From assembly GCF_006345805.1 (NCBI RefSeq), contig NW_021836140.1, forward strand, positions 1 through 64,000: a stretch of DNA of 64,000 nucleotides, written 5' to 3'. Positions 1 to 40,077 of the stretch are shown one piece after another. The stretch's first letter is position 1. Every line of letters starts with the position of its first letter. The notes below the pieces were generated by a model. That model was not told where the DNA came from, searched no databases, and saw nothing but the letters and a program-made list of their open reading frames with translations. Origin of the DNA: Octopus sinensis (lineage: Eukaryota). Position numbers and translations under genes: made by a program.

Positions 1-753
1 AAACGTTAAAGACTTGTTTTATTTATATTTCCTGAGCGCCATACTAATACAATTGTTCGTTTGTTTTCCACCTGCCTTCGTCTTTTGTTTATTTTCATAA
101 AGCTTCCCGTTATATATTATGCGCTCACGTGGTCTCACTTTCATCCTATATTCTACCAATACCACTATCAACACTTACCTCTACCTTGGATTTTCTTTAC
201 CTCTTGGATACTTACCATTGGCTGCACCTCTCTTTCGCGGATCAAAGTGACTTTGCATTGATGTGAAATCCTTAAAAAATATACCACAACGTCTACACAT
301 TTCTCACCTTGAACTTTCAACCTTGAACTTGTTCGCATAAACTGTCCCGTTTGTTGTATTTTTATTTTCTCTTATATTACCACTTTTTTTACATTCATTT
401 CATGCTTTCCACATTTTCCTGCATTTTTGTTCTCCTTTCCGTCTTTCTTCCCTCTCTGGATGTCCATACTCCGTTTCCTCTGCCTGCACCCCCCTTTTTT
501 GCCTCCCCCTCTCTCTGCTTCCCTTCTTTCTTTCCCTTTTCCGTTTGCCCCGTCTTTTCTGCCCCTATCGCTTACTTATCTAGTTTTTTCATACGATTAT
601 TATTTTTTTGTTTTTTTGAACGTTTGTTTTTCCCCTTTTTTCGCTATCCCTTTTTTTCTATTTTTTTCATACGATAATTTTTGTTTTTTGTTTTTTTTTG
701 TTTTTCGAACGTTTTTTTTTGTTTTTTCGAACGTTTTTTTCCGCTATCCCATC

Positions 754-3650
754 ATGCCGGATCCTAGGTCCTACCTCCTCACCCTCCATCACCGTTTGAA
801 GGATCATCTCCGTTCTCTTCCTGTATATTGCCTTCAGCCGTCCGTTAATCTCTCTCTACTTCTTTTAAAAAAAAACCGCTTCTCTAGCCATGTCTCTTTC
901 CTAAGCCGCTGCCTACATCACCGACTCATCCCTAAAGGTTTCCGCCTCCACTTCCACCCTGCTCTCCACTCGGATTCTTCCATCTTACCCATACTCCGCA
1001 CCACATCTTACCGCCTTATGCGGGCCACCATTCGCTCCAATCTCTCCAAACTACATGCCATCAACCGCCTTCTTCCTCCTGCTTTCTCCACCTTCTCTCC
1101 TCTCTGCCGCCTCTCTATGCTCCAAACACGCTACGCTTCATTATCCATTTGAATCACCTCTTCCATCAATTTCTTTCTGATACCAAACTTCGTAAACTCC
1201 AATCACTCTTCCATTCCACTCTACCCGACGCCACTACCCCACTCCTCCACCACCACTTCTCCCCTCCCGATAGGCTCCATCCACCCACACCTAACCCCAC
1301 TGCCCCTCCCTACAACCCCTTCTCCCCTCCCGATAGGCTCCATCCACCTACACCTAACCCTACTGCCCCGCCCCACCACCCCCCACACCTCCCCAATCCT
1401 CCCCCTCAGACCTCCACGATACCTACCACCCCTCCTACTTCTATTCCACCCACCCCTTCTCCACTTCCGTCTGTTGTTACCATTCCCCCCGATCTTCCCC
1501 TCTCTGCGGCTGAACGCTCCGTCCTTGGTAGGGGTCTGCATTTCATCCCCCTCACTCCATCCTGTAAGGAATTCCAGACGCGAGTTGATGTCCACAGCTT
1601 TGTGCGCCGTGTCCGGTTGGGTGCGCATTACCACGACTCCACCCACCCACACCCAACGAAGAGGACTGCTTCACTGGCCTGGGTCGCCGACCATCCCGTG
1701 GACGCCTGCCCCTGGCCAGATCCTAGCAGTGGATCTTTTCGCGGGCGCTTGTCAGCGTGCATTGGAGCGGTTCAACTTCTCCAGGCGCCAACGCCGCCTC
1801 AACATCTCCCCGGCTGAGCTCTTGGCTCTTCGTTCCCTCCAACGGCGCGCTGACATTATCATCAAACCGGCTGACAAGGGTGGAGCTGTAGTGGTGTGGC
1901 GCGCGGACCTCTATAGGGCCGAGGCTTTCCGCCAACTCAATGACACCTCCTTCTATTCCCCTCTGCCCTCTAACCCCACACGTAGCTACCAACAGACGGT
2001 ATCCTCTACTGTCCACGACCTCATCTCGTCCTCCCGTCTCCCCCGCACCGCATCCAACCTAATTGTGCGAACCCCACGTACCCCCACCATTTACTTCCTC
2101 CCAAAAATCCACAACCCAACAACCCTGGCCGCCCCATCGTCTCCGCCTGTAACTGCCCCACGGAGCTCATCTCTAAATACCTCGACCGTGTCCTTGCCCC
2201 CCTAGTGGCATCTCTTCCCTCCCACATCCACGATACCAACCATGCTCTCCGGCTTTTCAACTCTTTCTCCTTCCTCCCGGCTCCTCCAAATCCTTTTTAC
2301 TATGGACATCCAAAGCCTCTATACTGTTATCCCTCACCACGAAGGACTGCAGGCCCTTCGACACTTTCTTGACCTCCGCTCTAACCCTGTACCTGACACC
2401 TCCTCCACACTCATTCGTCTGGCCGAACTTGTCCTTACTCTGAACTGCTTCTCGTTCACGGGCGAGTTCTACCATCAGGTCTCGGGAGTGGCCATGGGAA
2501 CGCGAATGGGCCCCAACTATGCGAACCTGTTCGTTGGCTATGTTGAGGCCAAATATTCTCTAATTTCACTGGTCCCACTCCTGAACTATATGGTCGTTAC
2601 ATTGACGACATTATCGGTGCCACCTCACTCTCCCGCGAACATCTAGATTCCTTCCTCTCTTTCGTCCAATCTTCCATCCAGCCCTCCACTTCACTTCCAC
2701 TATCTCCAACACCTCTGTCTCCTTCCTCGACATTTCGGTTAGCATTCTTCTTCACTCCACTCTTACCACCTCCATTCACTACAAATACACAGACTCACAC
2801 TCATACCTCAACTTCTCTTCCTCCCACCCAGAACACACCAAGCTTTCCATCCCCTATTCCCAATTCCTCCGTCTACGTAGGCTCTGTAGTGACGACCATG
2901 ACTTTGAGACTCAGTCTCAACGTATGGCTCACCACTTCAGCCTACGTGGATACCCCCTCACCACTATCCACACCGCCCTTGCCAGAGCACGGTCCGTGGA
3001 CTGTGTATCTGCTCTCTCTCCCCGAACCCGCCCTGTAGTCTCCCGCCTCCCTTTCCCCCTCACTTACCACCCCACGACCCTACGTCTCCAACGCACCATT
3101 CTTCGAGCTTTCCGTCATCTCCAGTCCGACCCGTCCACTTCACACCTCTTCCCTAACCGACCCCTCCCCTCTTTCAAACGAGCCCACACACCTTCGAGAC
3201 CTTTTGGTCCATAGCTCCTTCCCTGACCCTACCTCCCAACCCGGCTCGTTCCCCTGCTCCCGCCCGCCCACGTTGCCGCACTTGCCCCTACCTCTCCAAC
3301 ACACCACCGCCTCACTCACTAGCACCCACCATCGACCCTATCCCATCATCCACTCCTTCACCTACACCTCCAGCAATATTATCTATTGCATCTCTTGCTC
3401 TCTCTGCAATTCCTTGTACATCGGACAAACGGGACGCCGCTTGGCTGACCGGTTCGCGGAACACCTTCGTGACATCCACCTTGCGAACGACACCACCGGT
3501 CTCACGCCATTTCCGCTCCACCGGTCACTCCTTGCAACACCTATCTGTGTTCAGTTTGTCCTTACACAGAGGCCATCCGGATTCCCGTTTGCGCCGTGAA
3601 CAGGAATTAATCTTCTCTCTTCGCTCTTATACGCCATTTGGTCTCAACTC
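754..3650 (+). pseudogene. Frameshifted PLE polyprotein (reverse transcriptase + Cys-rich linker + GIY-YIG endonuclease)
   Basis: ATG at 754. Motifs across frames: FLSRCLHHRLIPKGFRL, IIKPADKGGAVVVW (~1855-1900), YFLPKIH, LFTMDIQSLYTVIPH, QVSGVAMGTRMGP (~2476-2514), RYIDD (2595-2609), C-S-R-P..R-C-R-T-C (~3256-3285), NIIYCISCSLCNSLYIGQTGRRLADRFAEH (~3376-3465), PFGLN (~3633-3648). Several frameshifts. Confidence 0.92.
1257..1375 (+). repeat. 63-bp in-frame tandem duplication in a Pro-rich linker of the PLE ORF
   Basis: FSPPDRLHPPTPNPTAPP occurs twice (ttctcccctcccgataggctccatccacc at ~1257 and ~1320). Confidence 0.9.
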
Positions 3651-4340
3651 TCCCCCCTCCTCATCTAACCCCCCTCTCCCCCCTCCTCACCTATCCTTTC
3701 CCCCCGACCCCTACTTCTTCAGTCCTTCATCCTTTCACCCCTACTCCCCTTCCCTTCTTCCCTCTTTCTCCCTCCCTCCTTCCCTCTTCCCCTTCCCTCT
3801 GCTCCCTCACTCCCTCACTCCCCTTCTCTCTCCCCCCTATCCCTCTTTCATCCTTCCTCCCCCTCCTCCCCTTCCTTCTCCCCCTCCCCCTCTTCTCCCC
3901 CTCCCCCTCTTCTCCCCCTCCCCCTCTTCTCCCCCTCCCCCTCTTCTCCCCCTCCCCCTCTTCTCCCCCTCCCCCTCTTCTCCCCCTCCCCCTCTTCTCC
4001 TCACTACACTACACGACTTTACACATCACATCATATATGATGTGCCATACTAATACATACACCAACTATACATACTAATACATACGCCATACACACGTCC
4101 AGACCCCTCATACGCACTTATACTCTCTCATACACACACACACACACTTATACATACTAATACGTACTAATACATACTAATACATACTAATACATACACC
4201 AACCCCATACTTACGCACGTCCAGACCAATCCTACGCACTAATACTCTCTCATACACACACACACACACACACCCTTATACATACTAATACATATACCAA
4301 CCCTATACATACACACGTCCAGACCCCTCCTACGCACTAT
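3650..4340 (+). repeat. PLE 3' region: polypyrimidine tract followed by ~120-bp imperfect tandem units containing (CA)n
   Basis: C/T-only tract ~3750-4000; cacgtccagacc recurs at ~4093, ~4216 and ~4314. Confidence 0.85.
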
Positions 4341-4521
4341 TAGCTGGTCCTTCAACCCTATTATCAACCCTATTATCAACCCTATTATCTCCCCTTATTT
4401 CGCTCTCGCGTCTCATGTTTGATCTTTGACCTCTGGCCGAAATCAGATCGCCATGTTGATTCGTTAGCTACTGCACGCATTTTTTCCTCTCCTTCTTTCT
4501 GTGTTTTTTTCTCTCTGTGTA

Positions 4522-4559
4522 TCTTTCTGTTGAAGAGCGTAGGCTCGAAACGTTAAAGA
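4522..4559 (+). ncRNA. Minimal type I hammerhead-like motif in the PLE terminal repeat (core variant)
   Basis: TCTTT-CTGTTGAA-GAGC(GTAG)GCTC-GAAAC-GTT-AAAGA: stem I TCTTT/AAAGA, stem II GAGC/GCTC, palindromic ACGT stem III; position 6 is U instead of A. Confidence 0.7.
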
Positions 4560-4929
4560 CTTGTTTTATTTATATTTCCTGAGCGCCATACTAATACAAT
4601 TGTTCGTTTGTTTTCCACCTGCCTTCGTCTTTTGTCTATTTTCATAAAGCTTCCCGTTATATATATATATATACATATATATATATTTTATTCTTTTACT
4701 TGGTTCAATTATTTGACTGCGGCCATGCTGGAGTACCGCCTTGAAGGATGTTAGTCGAAAAATCGACCCCAGAACTTATTCTTGTAAGCCTAGTACTTAT
4801 TCTATCATTCTATCGGTCTTTTTTGCCGGGCCGCTAATTTACAGGGACATAAACACACCAGCATCGTTTGTCAACTGATGCAACGGGGGGAGGAACAAAC
4901 ATACGCACACACAAGTATATACATATATG

Positions 4930-9100: not shown

Positions 9101-9516
9101 GGCGACGAGCTGGCAGAATCATTAGCACGCTGGGCGAAATGCTTAGCGGTATTTCGTCTGTCTCTACGTTCTGAGTTCAAATTCCGCCGTGGTCGACTTT
9201 GCCTTTCATCCTTCCGGGGTCGATTAAATAAGTACCAGTTACGCACTGGAGTCGATGTAATCGACTTAATACCTATGTCTGTCCTTGTTTGTCCCCTCTT
9301 TGCTTAGCCCCTTGTGGGTAATAAAGAAATAGGTATTTCGCCTGTCTCTACGTTCTGAGTTCAAATTCCGCCGTGGTCGACTTTGCCTTTCATCCTTCTG
9401 GGGTCGATTAAATAAGTACCAGTTACGCACTGGAGTCGATGTAATCGACTTAATACCTATGTCTGTCCTTGTTTGTCCCCTCTATGTTTAGCCCCTTGTG
9501 GGTAATAAAGAAATAA
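9101..9516 (+). mobile_element. SINE family A with a tandemly duplicated 184-bp body and 17-bp TSD
   Basis: Head ggcgacgagctggcagaa, B-box-like gagttcaaattcc, core gcctttcatccttccggggtcga twice; TSD gtattRttcttcctgca at 9084-9100 and 9517-9533. Confidence 0.92.
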
Positions 9517-9728
9517 GTATTGTTCTTCCTGCAAGACAAGGAAGGAAATTCTTTGTTGTCGCTCGATTCATTAGAAATAGCAGAAACGTATCCCTCCTTT
9601 AATGTCTTACTGGTTTCTTTTGGAATCCAGAGATGCAATGAATTATGTAGATCGAGATGCACAAATCCCATTAGAAGAACGGGACTGCTAAACAGCAACA
9701 ACGACGACGACAAATGAAGGTACTCATA

Positions 9729-20796: not shown

Positions 20797-21490
20797 AAGC
20801 TATTCAAGCCATTATCCTTCCGTCAATTTTTAAGCATAATATACGAGAGACTACAATATTCTGATTGCGCATGGGTTGCAAGTTATTCATCTGCTATTTC
20901 CATCAAGTCGATTGAAAGAGTTGTGTTTCGTTCCTTCATTGACTTGATATAATTTTGGTAGTAGACAGTATGTGTGAGTGAGTGTGAAGGAAAAAGCAGA
21001 AATGCAAGAAAAGGAGTTCTTCATCCATCAGGCGACGACTTAGGGAATTGGTGAATTGGTAGAATACTTAGGGAGTCACGTGCTTTATGGCACTTCTTCC
21101 GGAAATTTGCATTCTTAGTTCAAATCTCGCACAGATCAACTTTGCGTTTCATTCCTCCGAGATTAATAAAATAAAGTATCATTCAAGAAATGGAGTTGGT
21201 ATAATCCGCTGTTCTTCACTTCTACAAAACGTTTCGAGCTTTGTTTCTAATTTAGAAACATTTGAGTTCCATCGGTTTGGTGAACAGTAGAGCACCGGAG
21301 AAAATGCTTTGCGGTGTATCTTCTGGCTGTCTATATGCTGAGTTTAATTGTTTAATTTTGCCTTTCACCTTTCTAGGGTCGATTAAGTATCGACCAGAGC
21401 CGGTGTATTTGTCAATTTACTTCATACATATATGAAGTCATTTCCTTCATACATGTATATGCCTACATTCATTATATATATATATATATA

Positions 21491-21807
21491 TTTCAACAAT
21501 TGAGGGTAAAATTAATTAATTATTAATCAATTTCACCAAGTATTCAGTATGTAAAGGGACCATTATAGGCGAATTCAAAATATTACATTATATATAAGGG
21601 CTTAGTAAAATAAATTACTTTGCCACATACTGAACTCATTAGAAATAGCAGCTAAAGAAATTTCTTCAGCTATTTCTAATACTTAAAGAAGATCTCTCTC
21701 AGATAGAGAGATCTTCTTTAAGTATTAGAAATAGCTGAAGAAATTTCTTTAGCTGCTATTTCTAATGAGTTCAGTATGTGGCAAAGTAATTTATTTTACT
21801 AAGCCCT

Positions 21808-21817
<10 letters not shown>
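21491..21817. mobile_element. Fold-back insertion of a relative of the 593-bp family (perfect 113-bp arms, 5-nt loop) in (TA)n
   Basis: 21587-21699 is the reverse complement of 21705-21817 around cagat; shares ccacatac, agaaatagc..gctatttct and aattaattaatt blocks with the 593-bp unit. Confidence 0.9.
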
Positions 21818-22540: not shown

Positions 22541-22599
<59 letters not shown>

Positions 22600-22784
22600 T
22601 AAGCAATAAAGGGTTTAGCAACGAATTGCCTTACCACATACCGAATTTAGAAATAGCAGTCAAAGAGTTATAGCTATTTCTTCTACTAAAAAGGGAGATC
22701 TCAGTAAAAACAGCAATTGGAAGGCAGACACAAACAGGTAAGAGAGAATGAATTGACGGCAATCTATCATACAATTTTAAGTTA

Positions 22785-22884
22785 TCTACGGACGTACGTT
22801 TCGAAATCAAGTTTTTAGGAAAGCATAAGAATTAAATATTAAATAATTCTATCTCACCAAAACTTCTTTTCTCTTCAGCGTAGA
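22785..22884 (-). ncRNA. Canonical type I hammerhead ribozyme (GUC site)
   Basis: Minus strand TCTACG-CTGAAGA-GAAA(AG)AAGTTTT...AAAACTT(GA)TTTC-GAAAC-GTAC-GTC-CGTAGA: 6-bp stem I, long stem II, palindromic stem III ACGTACGT; predicted cut between + coordinates 22791 and 22790. Confidence 0.9.
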
Positions 22885-23377
22885 ATACTATAATCATAAA
22901 TGATTATATATTGAATTTTGAGATACTAGAAGGCACCAACTCAACTCAGTATCAGAGCGAGCTAGAATCCGCAACTAGTATCACCAAATTCAATGTGTGA
23001 ATGAAAAGATTGTGTCACCAGCCCCTTCCCACCCGCGTGTAGCCAAAACAAGATGCTGTGGTCATCTACTGAGATAAAATATGGTTATCCGTAATAATGA
23101 AGGGTGAAATTAATTAATTTGGAATAATTATCAATTACACCAAGTAGTCTTCGGCATGTAAAAGCCTCATTCGAGGAAAATTTAAGTAATACTAAGCAAT
23201 AAAGGGTTTAGCAACGAATTGCCTTACCACATACCGAATTTAGAAATAGCAGTCAAAGAGTTATAGCTATTTCTTCTACTAAAAAGGGAGATCTCAGTAA
23301 AAACAGCAATTGGAAGGCAGACACAAACAGGTAAGAGAGAATGAATTGACGGCAATCTATCATACAATTTTAAGTTA

Positions 23378-23477
23378 TCTACGGACGTACGTTTCGAAAT
23401 CAAGTTTTTAGGAAAGCATAAGAATTAAATATTAAATAATTCTATCTCACCAAAACTTCTTTTCTCTTCAGCGTAGA
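23378..23477 (-). ncRNA. Canonical type I hammerhead ribozyme, second copy
   Basis: Same sequence as 22785-22884, shifted 593 bp. Confidence 0.9.
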
Positions 23478-23969
23478 ATACTATAATCATAAATGATTAT
23501 ATATTGAATTTTGAGATACTAGAAGGCACCAACTCAACTCAGTATCAGAGCGAGCTAGAATCCGCAACTAGTATCACCAAATTCAATGTGTGAATGAAAA
23601 GATTGTGTCACCAGCCCCTCCCACCCGCGTGTAGCCAAAACAAGATGCTGTGGTCATCTACTGCGATAAAATATGGTTATCCGTAATAATGAAGGGTGAA
23701 ATTAATTAATTTGGAATAATTATCAATTACACCAAGTAGTCTTCGGCATGTAAAAGCCTCATTCGAGGAAAATTTAAGTAATACTAAGCAATAAAGGGTT
23801 TAGCAACGAATTGCCTTACCACATACCGAATTTAGAAATAGCAGTCAAAGAGTTATAGCTATTTCTTCTACTAAAAAGGGAGATCTCAGTAAAAACAGCA
23901 ATTGGAAGGCAGACACAAACAGGTAAGAGAGAATGAATTGACGGCAATCTATCATACAATTTTAAGTTA

Positions 23970-24050
<81 letters not shown>

Positions 24051-34323: not shown

Positions 34324-34420
<97 letters not shown>

Positions 34421-34421
<1 letters not shown>

Positions 34422-34988
34422 TAATACTTCAAATATACCGTAAATGGTCCTTTTACATACCGAATACTGCTTGGTCGAATTGATTAACAATTAATTAATT
34501 CTACCCTTTTTTACTGACAATATAATGATTTCTCTCCAAGAATTTGAACTACAGTTTTCGCCTCTGTAGAAATGCACTACTCTATGACTCACGTGGGTGG
34601 ACAGGGAGAATAATAGATCTCATTTGTATTTTTGGATTCGCTAGTACTGGGTGTCCAGCATAGTTTGTCCGATGTTACAGATATCGGATGGGTATGTTTG
34701 GTTCTTAGTATTTTCAAATCCAAATCAGAAGAAATCTCTGAGCTGATGAAGGAAAAGTGGCGTTTAACCCACGAATCCAGAAACAGGCTGTTCTCGGGTA
34801 TCTTATATGGATGTGATCTTTCATTGTTTTTCCCTTATACCTATGTGAGTTATTTTCTGAGTATGCATTGTCTGGAGACTTTTACTTGCAGTTGAAGAAA
34901 TAGCCAAATTTTTGGCTGCTATTTCTGAAAAGTTCGGTGTGCGGTAAAGTGATTTTTTTTACTTTACCATATTTTTATAAATTAATAC
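34421..34988 (+). mobile_element. Single ~568-bp unit related to the 593-bp family, with hammerhead, between (TA)n tracts
   Basis: Start block cttttacataccgaatactgcttgg...aattaattaatt and end block agaaatagc..gctatttct..ttcggtgtg are homologous to the minus strand of the 593-bp unit; begins and ends with ttaatac. Confidence 0.8.
34737..34798 (+). ncRNA. Type I hammerhead ribozyme motif (GUU site)
   Basis: TCTGAG-CTGATGA-A-GGA(AAA)GTGG..CCAC(GAA)TCC-A-GAAA-CAG(G)CTG-TT-CTCGGG. Confidence 0.82.
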
Positions 34989-34997
34989 TATATATAT

Positions 34998-34998
<1 letters not shown>

Positions 34999-35082
<84 letters not shown>
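34999..35082. repeat. (GATA)n microsatellite
   Basis: Visible directly. Confidence 0.97.
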
Positions 35083-35084
<2 letters not shown>

Positions 35085-35240
35085 TACGGGTGTGTGTGAT
35101 TGTGTATAGAAGAATATATTAATAAAAGGAATTCGAACCTTGTCTGATTTTCACGTTTTATTTACAATCTTATAATGATATAATATAAGATAATATAATA
35201 TAATAAAATAAAATATAGAATGCTAAATGTTCATTCTGAT

Positions 35241-35285
35241 TGAACTAGTACTTTCATGCATTAAATTCTGCAATCTTCAGGTTCA
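35241..35285 (-). ncRNA. Minimal type I hammerhead motif (CUA site)
   Basis: Minus strand TGAAC-CTGAAGA-T-TGCA(GAATTTAA)TGCA-T-GAAA-GTAC-TA-GTTCA; 5-bp stem I, palindromic AGTACT stem III. Confidence 0.8.
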
Positions 35286-35347
35286 TGTAGTAGTGGTGAC
35301 AGTCATGCTTCACAATTTTTGACTGTATATATATGACTATATATATA

Positions 35348-39214: not shown

Positions 39215-40077
39215 TACTCTAGGCACAAGGCCCGAAATTTGGGGGAGGGGGCCAGTCGATTAGATCGACCCCAGTACGCACCTGGTATTTAATTTATCGA
39301 CCCGTAAGGATGAAAGGCAAAGTCGATCTCGGTGGAATTTGAACTCAGAACATAAAGACAGACGAAATAATTCTAAGCATTTTGCTCGGTGTGCTAACGA
39401 TTCTTATTTCTTTGTTGCCCACAAGGGGCTAAACATAGAAGGGACAAACAAGGACAGACAAAGGGATTAAGTCGATTACATCTCGACTCCAGTGCGTAAC
39501 TGGTACTTAATTTATCGACCCCCAAAAGAATGAAAGGCAAAGTAAGACCTCAGCGGAATTTGAACTCAGAACATAAAGACTGACGAAATACTGCTAAGCA
39601 TTTCGCCTAGTGTGCTAACATTTATTTCTTAATTGCCCATAAGGGGCTAAACACAGAGGGGACAAACAAGGACAGAGAAAGCGATTAAGTCGATTACATC
39701 TCGACCCCAGTGCGTAACTGGTACTTAATTTATCGACGCCAAAAGGATGAAAGGCAAAGTAGGACCTCAGCGGAATTTGAACTCAGAACATAAAGACTGA
39801 CGAAATACTGCTAAGCATTTCGCCTAGTGTGCTAACATTTATTTCTTAATTGCCCATAAGGGGCTAAACACAGAGGGGACAAACAAGGACAGACAAAGCG
39901 ATTAAGTCGATTACATCTCGACCCCAGTGCGTAACTGGTACTTAATTTATCGACCCCAAAAAGATGAAAGGCAAAGTAGGACCTCAGCGGAATTTGAACT
40001 CAGAACGTAACGGCAGACGAAATACTGCTAAGCATTTCGCCCGGCGTGCTAACGTTTTCTGCCAGCCAGCTCGCTGC
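39215..40077 (-). mobile_element. Tandem array of four SINE family A units
   Basis: gaactcagaac at 39341, 39562, 39779 and 39996 (periods 221, 217, 217); only the last unit keeps the full head. Confidence 0.92.

What the first reader, a model, noticed from the sequence alone, without database searches (positions are those of the whole stretch)
34421..34988. Exact unit-length relative of the 593-bp repeat carrying a different hammerhead at the same distance from its 3' end
Seen: the element starts with the block that follows the 3' end in the 593-bp tandem and finishes at the homologous 3' end, with ttaatac at both termini, so it spans one full period (~568 bp). Its hammerhead (34737-34798) has unrelated stems, yet its cut site lies about 195 nt from the 3' end, versus about 193 nt in the 593-bp family. 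Inference: a circularly permuted monomer (one round around a circular or multimeric template), with architecture conserved and ribozyme sequence replaced or diverged.
Basis: partly seen in the sequence, partly recalled or inferred. Interest (0 to 1): 0.75.

Follow-up and report, generated by a model that had tools for sequence, protein, structure and literature searches.

The report
One-turn copy of hammerhead retrozyme
This is one copy of a known kind of small, protein-free jumping repeat with a predicted self-cutting RNA motif; it is a distant relative of the 593-base repeat, and the ends of its many genomic copies suggest that a borrowed Penelope-type enzyme likely copies a single RNA, probably a circle, from two fixed start points.

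Summary
Observation largely confirmed. 34421-34988 is one 561-bp period (not 568) plus a short terminal repeat, set in (TA)n. It is homologous to the 593-bp repeat (score 130 vs shuffles -24±15), with the predicted cut 194 vs 193 nt from the 3' end.
It belongs to a radiation of non-coding hammerhead repeats (5,474 motif hits), i.e. non-LTR retrozymes or non-autonomous Penelope-like elements. The hammerhead diverged rather than being replaced: a third family bridges the two.
Exact monomers are a minority: 0 of 116 unselected insertions, 3 of 38 length-selected loci; 5' ends pile up only mildly at whole periods.
Copies are 5'-truncated tandems. In 80 of 81 scorable head-to-head insertions, one arm ends at site a and the other about 100 nt further at site b. 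Both arms and all units share variants, pointing to one template.
Cleavage, circles and the partner enzyme were not shown. The scan reported this anatomy before on other DNA of this genome. New member of a known kind; useful for testing how Penelope-type elements integrate.

The parts
34421..34988 (+). Family A retrozyme copy: one 561-bp period plus 7-9-nt terminal repeat; both ends at start site a
34326..34420 (.). (AT)n target, left flank; matches the AT-rich unit junction at 14 of 15 nt (likely microhomology for the 5' joint)
34989..35084 (.). TA/(ATAG)n right flank
34426..34524 (+). 'Tail' block between the two 3'-end sites; other copies end at about 34524 (site b)
34456..34464 (+). CATACCGAA, predicted to pair with 34933-34941 across the unit junction (9-bp helix, 100% of cells paired in 9 copies from several subfamilies)
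34658..34673 (+). Position where an APE-type LINE inserts in older family-A copies (16-bp duplication); this copy's subfamily differs at 3 nt around it
34737..34798 (+). Minimal type I hammerhead motif: stem I TCTGAG/CTCGGG, core CTGATGA, A-A at base of stem II, near-palindromic stem III, predicted cut after 34792 (GUU); folds as a double hammerhead in a dimer
34896..34926 (+). Conserved hairpin AGAAATAGC...GCTATTTCT shared by all subfamilies
34943..34968 (+). Hairpin just upstream of site a, with 3 pairs changed on both sides across subfamilies
22598..23973 (-). Family B array (191+592+593 bp), two hammerheads (cores start at 23471 and 22878), 5' end 2 nt past a cut site, 3' end at site a, in (TA)n
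21485..21817 (.). Family C head-to-head insertion: minus arm ends at site b, plus arm at site a

Best explanation
This is a dispersed copy of a 561-bp non-coding tandem-unit element carrying a predicted type I hammerhead, homologous to the 593-bp repeat, which is likely pasted into (TA)n by a borrowed Penelope-type reverse transcriptase/endonuclease that likely primes at two fixed internal sites about 100 nt apart on one RNA, probably a circle. Shown: homology, periodic arrays, random 5' truncation, (TA)n targets, two 3'-end sites, one arm per site in head-to-head insertions, shared variants within an insertion, conserved predicted structure. Inferred: arrays are transcribed and cut by the hammerhead (probably as a double hammerhead) into cut-to-cut monomers that are ligated into circles. 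A protein dimer then nicks both strands of (TA)n, one end priming at site a and the other at site b; the reverse transcriptase runs through the cut junction for up to several turns; and the two cDNA ends are joined to each other (head-to-head) or to the target. This copy is a one-armed product whose 5' end fell at site a after one turn, a mild hot spot probably helped by AT microhomology or by the enzyme meeting the first primer. With one hammerhead and its cross-junction helix split between its ends, it would be a dead end unless read through.
For: Homology. Family size: 427 exact hits of an A 24-mer, 1,197 of a B 41-mer, 5,474 of the shared motif, controls 0. Ends: a+b in 19 of 20 (A), 41 of 41 (B), 20 of 20 (C) two-armed insertions with both ends at a or b. 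5' ends of the two arms within 15 nt in 20 of 38 B pairs (4.3 expected) and 6 of 18 C pairs (1.5 expected). Discordance at common polymorphic sites within an insertion is 0-5% (same arm or opposite arms) vs 29-45% between loci; locus-private variants are shared by opposite arms in 11 of 26 A, 5 of 34 B and 4 of 22 C loci. 61% of A arms and 34% of B arms run past the hammerhead cut. Units fold at z -6.7 to -8.0 as circles vs -0.3 to -1.2 for four control stretches. Stem I keeps 4 or more pairs in 172 of 177 hammerheads with five different sequences. Published: two internal start sites and cutting of both strands by a Penelope-like protein (PMC11167929); retrozymes as circles and as Penelope derivatives (PMC7229834; bioRxiv 10.64898/2026.07.22.740005).
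Against: No autonomous element with a homologous end was found among 66 GIY-YIG loci or next to the units in other loci. No cleavage, circle or transcript was shown. A-A at the base of stem II and a GUU triplet may weaken this copy's ribozyme, and the minimum-energy fold does not form the hammerhead. Arm 5' ends are not significantly matched in family A (2 of 14, p=0.26). One A insertion (L222) has both arms at site a, and 16 two-armed A/B insertions have one end at neither site. Shared variants could also come from a homogeneous linear multimer or later gene conversion. In PMC11167929 the start site did not differ between strands and uncut RNA was the main template.
Confidence: 0.8

Rival explanations
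1. Same element and enzyme, but the template is an uncut linear multimeric transcript (or one RNA reused by template jumps); no circle is involved and the hammerhead is dispensable for copying.
For: In vitro, hammerhead mutants did not affect insertion by a Penelope-like protein (PMC11167929, main text read). 8 of 9 Xenopus dimer elements did not cleave (bioRxiv 10.64898/2026.07.22.740005). A weak excess of B 5' ends just inside the cut site (6 vs 2.8, p=0.06), including the window's B array, fits linear cut RNA for some events.
Against: Units within an arm are as alike as opposite arms (6.0 vs 5.8 differences/kb in A). Long arrays (about 10 units at L321) need a length-restoring step. Stem I is conserved by compensatory change. 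The unit is strongly self-paired with a helix closing across the junction.
Confidence: 0.3
2. One reading: the normal product is a whole monomer (one round of the template), so lengths cluster at whole multiples.
For: 3 of 38 length-selected A loci are exact solo monomers; pooled excess of 5' ends at whole periods, 7 vs 1.7, p=0.002.
Against: 0 of 116 unselected insertions are solo exact monomers; median arm is 311 nt (A) and 133 nt (B) with a continuous spread.
Confidence: 0.07
3. The unit is the solo terminal repeat (pLTR) or 3' fragment of a longer autonomous Penelope-like element.
For: Same insertion anatomy as autonomous elements (PMC8557442, PMC3846280 passages); retrozymes are reported to derive from pLTRs.
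Against: Units join head-to-tail with no ORF between them in all arrays seen; none of the 22 non-GIY-YIG-selected or other loci with Penelope-type protein hits had the ORF joined in sense directly to a unit by my reading; no homology in 66 GIY-YIG loci. Only 150 of 5,029 endonuclease candidates were scored.
Confidence: 0.06
4. The hammerhead was swapped as a module between unrelated ribozymes.
For: Stem II of A and B is 9 of 30 identical, and stem III differs.
Against: Family C has A's stem I and A-A stem II base with B's GUAC stem III; other subfamilies fill further steps; flanking segments are about 50% identical too. No tree was built.
Confidence: 0.05

Closest known systems
Metazoan non-LTR retrozymes (Cervera and de la Pena 2020, PMC7229834; parts 2-4 of 6 read: end of methods, results, discussion)
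   Same: Non-coding AT-rich tandem units, one type I hammerhead each, highly self-paired, dispersed copies, proposed circle plus borrowed RT.
   Different: Units are 557-600 bp (150-450 bp there). The hammerhead is predicted to be blocked in the minimum-energy fold of A, whereas most metazoan circles there leave it free. No cephalopod hit in my searches (supplement not read). Expression was not shown here.
Vertebrate non-LTR retrozymes as non-autonomous Penelope-like elements (Li, Clavereau, Pollet, bioRxiv 10.64898/2026.07.22.740005; parts 1-3 of 5 read)
   Same: Monomers, dimers and multimers of one unit; length within their 51-972 bp range; Penelope-like elements co-occur in the genome.
   Different: They found pLTR homology for 24 of 57 families; none was found here. 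The text I read does not analyse insertion ends, and favours local amplification for tandems.
Penelope-like elements, Poseidon PAc mechanism (Frangieh et al. 2024, PMC11167929, parts 1-3 of 4 read; Craig et al. 2021, PMC8557442 and Arkhipova et al. 2013, PMC3846280, passages only)
   Same: Partial tandems, 5' truncation, inverted 5' copy, optional tail at one end, AT-rich or (TA)n targets, two internal start sites, both strands cut and extended.
   Different: No protein; the tail is about 100 nt, not 30-40; and the pairing of one arm per site is near-strict (80 of 81), while PAc in vitro showed no strand difference in start site.

Membership tests
Non-LTR retrozyme | Type I hammerhead motif in each unit | tested here: met
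   Pattern scan and covariation of stem I; Rfam did not score it
Non-LTR retrozyme | Head-to-tail tandem units of a few hundred bp, dispersed in many copies | tested here: met
   Periods 561, 593, 557, 582, 585; arrays of many units
Non-LTR retrozyme | No protein-coding capacity | tested here: met
   No stop-to-stop frame of 120 aa or more overlaps 34421-34988
Non-LTR retrozyme | Highly self-paired monomer RNA | tested here: met
   z -8.5 linear; -6.7 to -8.0 circular vs controls near -1; prediction only
Non-LTR retrozyme | Self-cleavage | not testable with these tools
   Needs a transcription assay
Non-LTR retrozyme | Expressed as linear and circular RNA | not testable with these tools
   Only contigs of runs not on record as RNA were available
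Non-LTR retrozyme | No LTR, primer-binding site or polypurine tract | tested here: inconclusive
   No fixed LTR-bounded structure (variable 5' ends); primer-binding site not searched
Non-autonomous Penelope-like element | 5'-truncated partial tandems with fixed 3' end | tested here: met
Non-autonomous Penelope-like element | Inverted 5'-truncated copy (head-to-head) | tested here: met
   33 of 54 A and 45 of 62 B insertions are two-armed
Non-autonomous Penelope-like element | Tail at one end, i.e. two start sites | tested here: met
   80 of 81 scorable two-armed insertions are a+b; tail about 100 nt
Non-autonomous Penelope-like element | AT-rich or (TA)n target | tested here: met
   Flanks printed
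Non-autonomous Penelope-like element | 3' end or pLTR homologous to an autonomous partner | tested here: inconclusive
   None in 66 GIY-YIG loci; only 150 of 5,029 candidates were scored
Plant-type LTR retrozyme | Type III hammerhead in paired LTRs | tested here: not met
   Type I topology, tandem units

The most novel reading that the evidence does not exclude
A Penelope-type protein dimer copies one circular RNA from two structurally marked sites at once, one site strictly assigned to each target strand. Exact monomers like this one arise when the enzyme meets the first primer after one turn. The circle is itself parasitised by an APE-type LINE inserting at one base of the unit, and the youngest subfamily (this copy's) has changed that target, possibly as an escape.
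Probability: 0.4. Interest if true: 0.72.

Novelty: new member of a known kind. Interest (0 to 1): 0.48.

Why it matters
How Penelope-like elements make their tandem, inverted and tailed insertions is still open in the papers read, and rolling-circle reverse transcription of retrozymes is proposed but not shown. Hundreds of young, near-identical insertions here give hard rules to test: one arm per start site, matched 5' ends, one template per insertion, and read-through of the ribozyme junction. The single copy in the finding is an ordinary, probably dead-end member; its exact length is a minor hot spot, not a new principle.

Tried and rejected
Rfam scan: no hammerhead family hit among 91 matches, nearly all microsatellite-driven miRNA models.
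Expression: no RNA holder listed. Contigs of four runs guessed to be RNA cover both units, and three cross the B unit junction, but genomic tandems give the same joint and the runs may hold DNA, so this is not used.
Partner search: GIY-YIG scan gave mainly two RT+GIY-YIG families; none of 66 loci has an end homologous to the unit, the strong hits being separate neighbouring insertions by position and strand. A weak likeness of one family's last 30 nt to the unit's hairpin 3' side was seen by eye and not pursued. The Penelope-like element at window 740-4657 has no profile hit to the unit; its 20 fetched copies were not analysed.
Pile-up of 5' ends at the hammerhead cut: not significant (9 vs 6.2, p=0.17 pooled).
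The first alignment had a mis-cut family C row and was replaced; one cluster was family B read backwards and was ignored.
The 50-bp end pieces were search-window clipping, not real ends.
Target-site duplications could not be read inside (TA)n.
Literature searches. None returned a cephalopod retrozyme, a statement of strict one-site-per-arm pairing, or a LINE targeting a retrozyme, judged mostly from listings. Supplements were not read and could bear on this.

Full report
Setting. The window is contig C12611 of a 2.7-Gb animal genome; earlier scan notes call it a cephalopod (not tested here). Scaffold C12618 repeats the same stretch at a near-constant offset, so its copies are not independent. 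I call the finding's repeat family A, the 593-bp repeat family B, and a third relative at 21485-21817 family C.

Observation. TTAATAC lies at 34421 and 34982, giving a 561-bp period plus a short terminal repeat between (AT)n and TA/(ATAG)n. The global alignment to B scores 130.5 against -24.4±14.5 in 200 shuffles. Identity is 69/100 in the first block, 58/81 in the last and about 50% between. My scan of both strands of the window found four hammerhead-like motifs: one in A, two in B, and one at 35280 in a neighbouring element. Cut to 3' site is 194, 193 and 194 nt in A, B and C. Stem II explains the length difference (30 vs 69 nt).

A radiation, with the ribozyme diverged. The shared hairpin motif occurs 5,474 times, control 0. 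Units of 557, 561, 582, 585 and 593-600 bp were recovered and align end to end. Family C has A's stem I and A-A stem II base with B's palindromic stem III. Of 177 distinct hammerheads, 172 keep 4 or more stem I pairs, using GAG/CUC, ACG/CGU, GCG/CGU, AUG/CAU or GUG/CAC. Two copies of A's hammerhead co-fold as a double hammerhead. This supports divergence under selection, not replacement; no tree was built.

Insertion anatomy. For unselected samples I took loci from the first 100 listed matches of a 3' pattern: 54 of 59 loci for A (427 matches in all) and all 62 for B (1,197 matches). Family C used 29 best-scoring loci selected for the tail. 3' ends fall at site a (unit end) or site b (about 100 nt further), in (TA)n; 5' ends vary continuously. 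Among two-armed insertions with both ends at a or b, one of each occurs in 19 of 20 (A), 41 of 41 (B) and 20 of 20 (C); independence would give at most half. Set aside were 12 A and 4 B with one end elsewhere and 3 cut by the locus edge; arms were assigned by hand for L184 and L222. The two 5' ends lie within 15 nt in 20 of 38 B pairs (4.3 by permutation) and 6 of 18 C pairs (1.5), but only 2 of 14 A pairs (1.0).

Is unit length special? No solo exact monomer is among the 116 unselected insertions. Among 38 distinct loci chosen for full-length match there are three: this one, L003 and L404, each joined as (AT)n to TAATAC or TATTAC (27 distinct loci inspected, the rest read from the hit table). 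Arms ending within 5 nt of a whole period number 3 of 155 in A+B (1.1 expected, p=0.10) and 7 of 202 with C (1.7, p=0.002); seven complex loci were left out (L175, L176, L188, L190, L194, L235, L243). So site a is a mild hot spot for 5' ends. The junction matches (AT)n at 14 of 15 nt, which alone could explain it; a stall where the enzyme meets the first primer is the alternative. There is no significant pile-up at the hammerhead cut (9 vs 6.2; B alone 6 vs 2.8, p=0.06).

One template per insertion. At common polymorphic sites, units of one arm disagree at 4.6, 2.5 and 0% (A, B, C), opposite arms at 4.4, 4.0 and 1.7%, and different loci at 29, 32 and 45%. Variants private to a locus are shared by opposite arms in 11 of 26, 5 of 34 and 4 of 22 loci (seven duplicated or complex loci left out). 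This fits one RNA read repeatedly, but a homogeneous multimer or later conversion is not excluded.

RNA structure (predicted). The A unit folds at -174 kcal/mol, z -8.5. As circles, four units give z -6.7 to -8.0 against -0.3 to -1.2 for four control stretches (20 shuffles each). Across nine copies from several subfamilies, the region around sites a and b has six helices, 96.6% of cells paired, six pairs changed on both sides (6 of 500 shuffles as high; the structure was derived from the same alignment). One 9-bp helix joins sequence before site a to the tail after it, so it needs RNA continuous across the unit end.

Partner. The genome holds young RT+GIY-YIG elements with long open frames that also end in (TA)n; their linker looks Neptune-like (label from PMC8557442 passages and recall). 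None of 66 loci shares an end with the unit, and only 150 of 5,029 candidates were scored. The partner is unidentified.

A second parasite. An APE-endonuclease LINE interrupts 3 of the 54 A loci. Of 30 loci carrying its 3' end (50 matches), 7 continue directly into family A at the same base and 2 more into the same 16-bp target duplicate; 6 of these 9 were not among those that led me to it. The window's subfamily reads CCAGCATAG there against CTGGCATGG in the older one (9 vs 39 of 58 units). Escape is speculation. This lead came from earlier scan notes.

Comparison. It works like, and on every testable feature is, a non-LTR retrozyme (PMC7229834) with the insertion signature of Penelope-like elements (PMC8557442, PMC3846280, PMC11167929); a 2026 preprint already links the two (10.64898/2026.07.22.740005). 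A tail at one end is known. Near-strict one-site-per-arm pairing, a 100-nt tail and shared variants across arms were not in the texts I read (searches; no supplements read). The scan has reported the same anatomy on other DNA of this genome; my a/b counts were made before I saw those notes, the variant and LINE tests after.

Verdict. Real feature, new member of a known kind. The exact length is a minority outcome and the hammerhead is diverged. Interest 0.48, for the testable integration rules rather than for this copy.

Noticed in passing
window 35085-35327 (-): 3' untranslated fragment of an autonomous RT+GIY-YIG element (88% to the 3' end of L293) with its own hammerhead-like motif at 35280, tail-to-tail with the finding across the microsatellite.
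   Followed up: partly
window 740-4657 (+): Frameshifted Penelope-like element (RVT_1 and GIY-YIG pieces), high-copy family at 97-98% (3,314 candidates), ending in (TA)n with a hammerhead-like motif near 4490-4520.
   Followed up: partly
L222:1833-7331; L374-L403: APE-type two-ORF LINE inserting at one base of family A in 9 of 30 loci, with a 16-bp duplication; many other copies lie in tandem with themselves.
   Followed up: partly
L291, L296 3' ends: The commonest GIY-YIG family has a hammerhead-like motif with a UUGAUAA core (U3-A8 swap; numbering recalled) about 65 nt from its 3' end.
   Followed up: no
window 34574-34603: Internal motif CACGYGGGTGGRMAGGG conserved in all subfamilies; possible promoter element, and also paired in the predicted fold.
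   Followed up: no
window 9148-9521 and 39254-40057: Tandem dimers and tetramers (184 and 217 bp) of a SINE-like repeat (family likeness recalled).
   Followed up: no
G000:C12618: Scaffold duplicating this window's sequence at about +12 kb offset; possibly a redundant haplotig.
   Followed up: no
L241:1744, L242:3932, L222:1610: Three family-A arms start at unit position 29, and B arms at 30, 31 and 34, just at the cross-junction helix; a possible second 5'-end hot spot.
   Followed up: no
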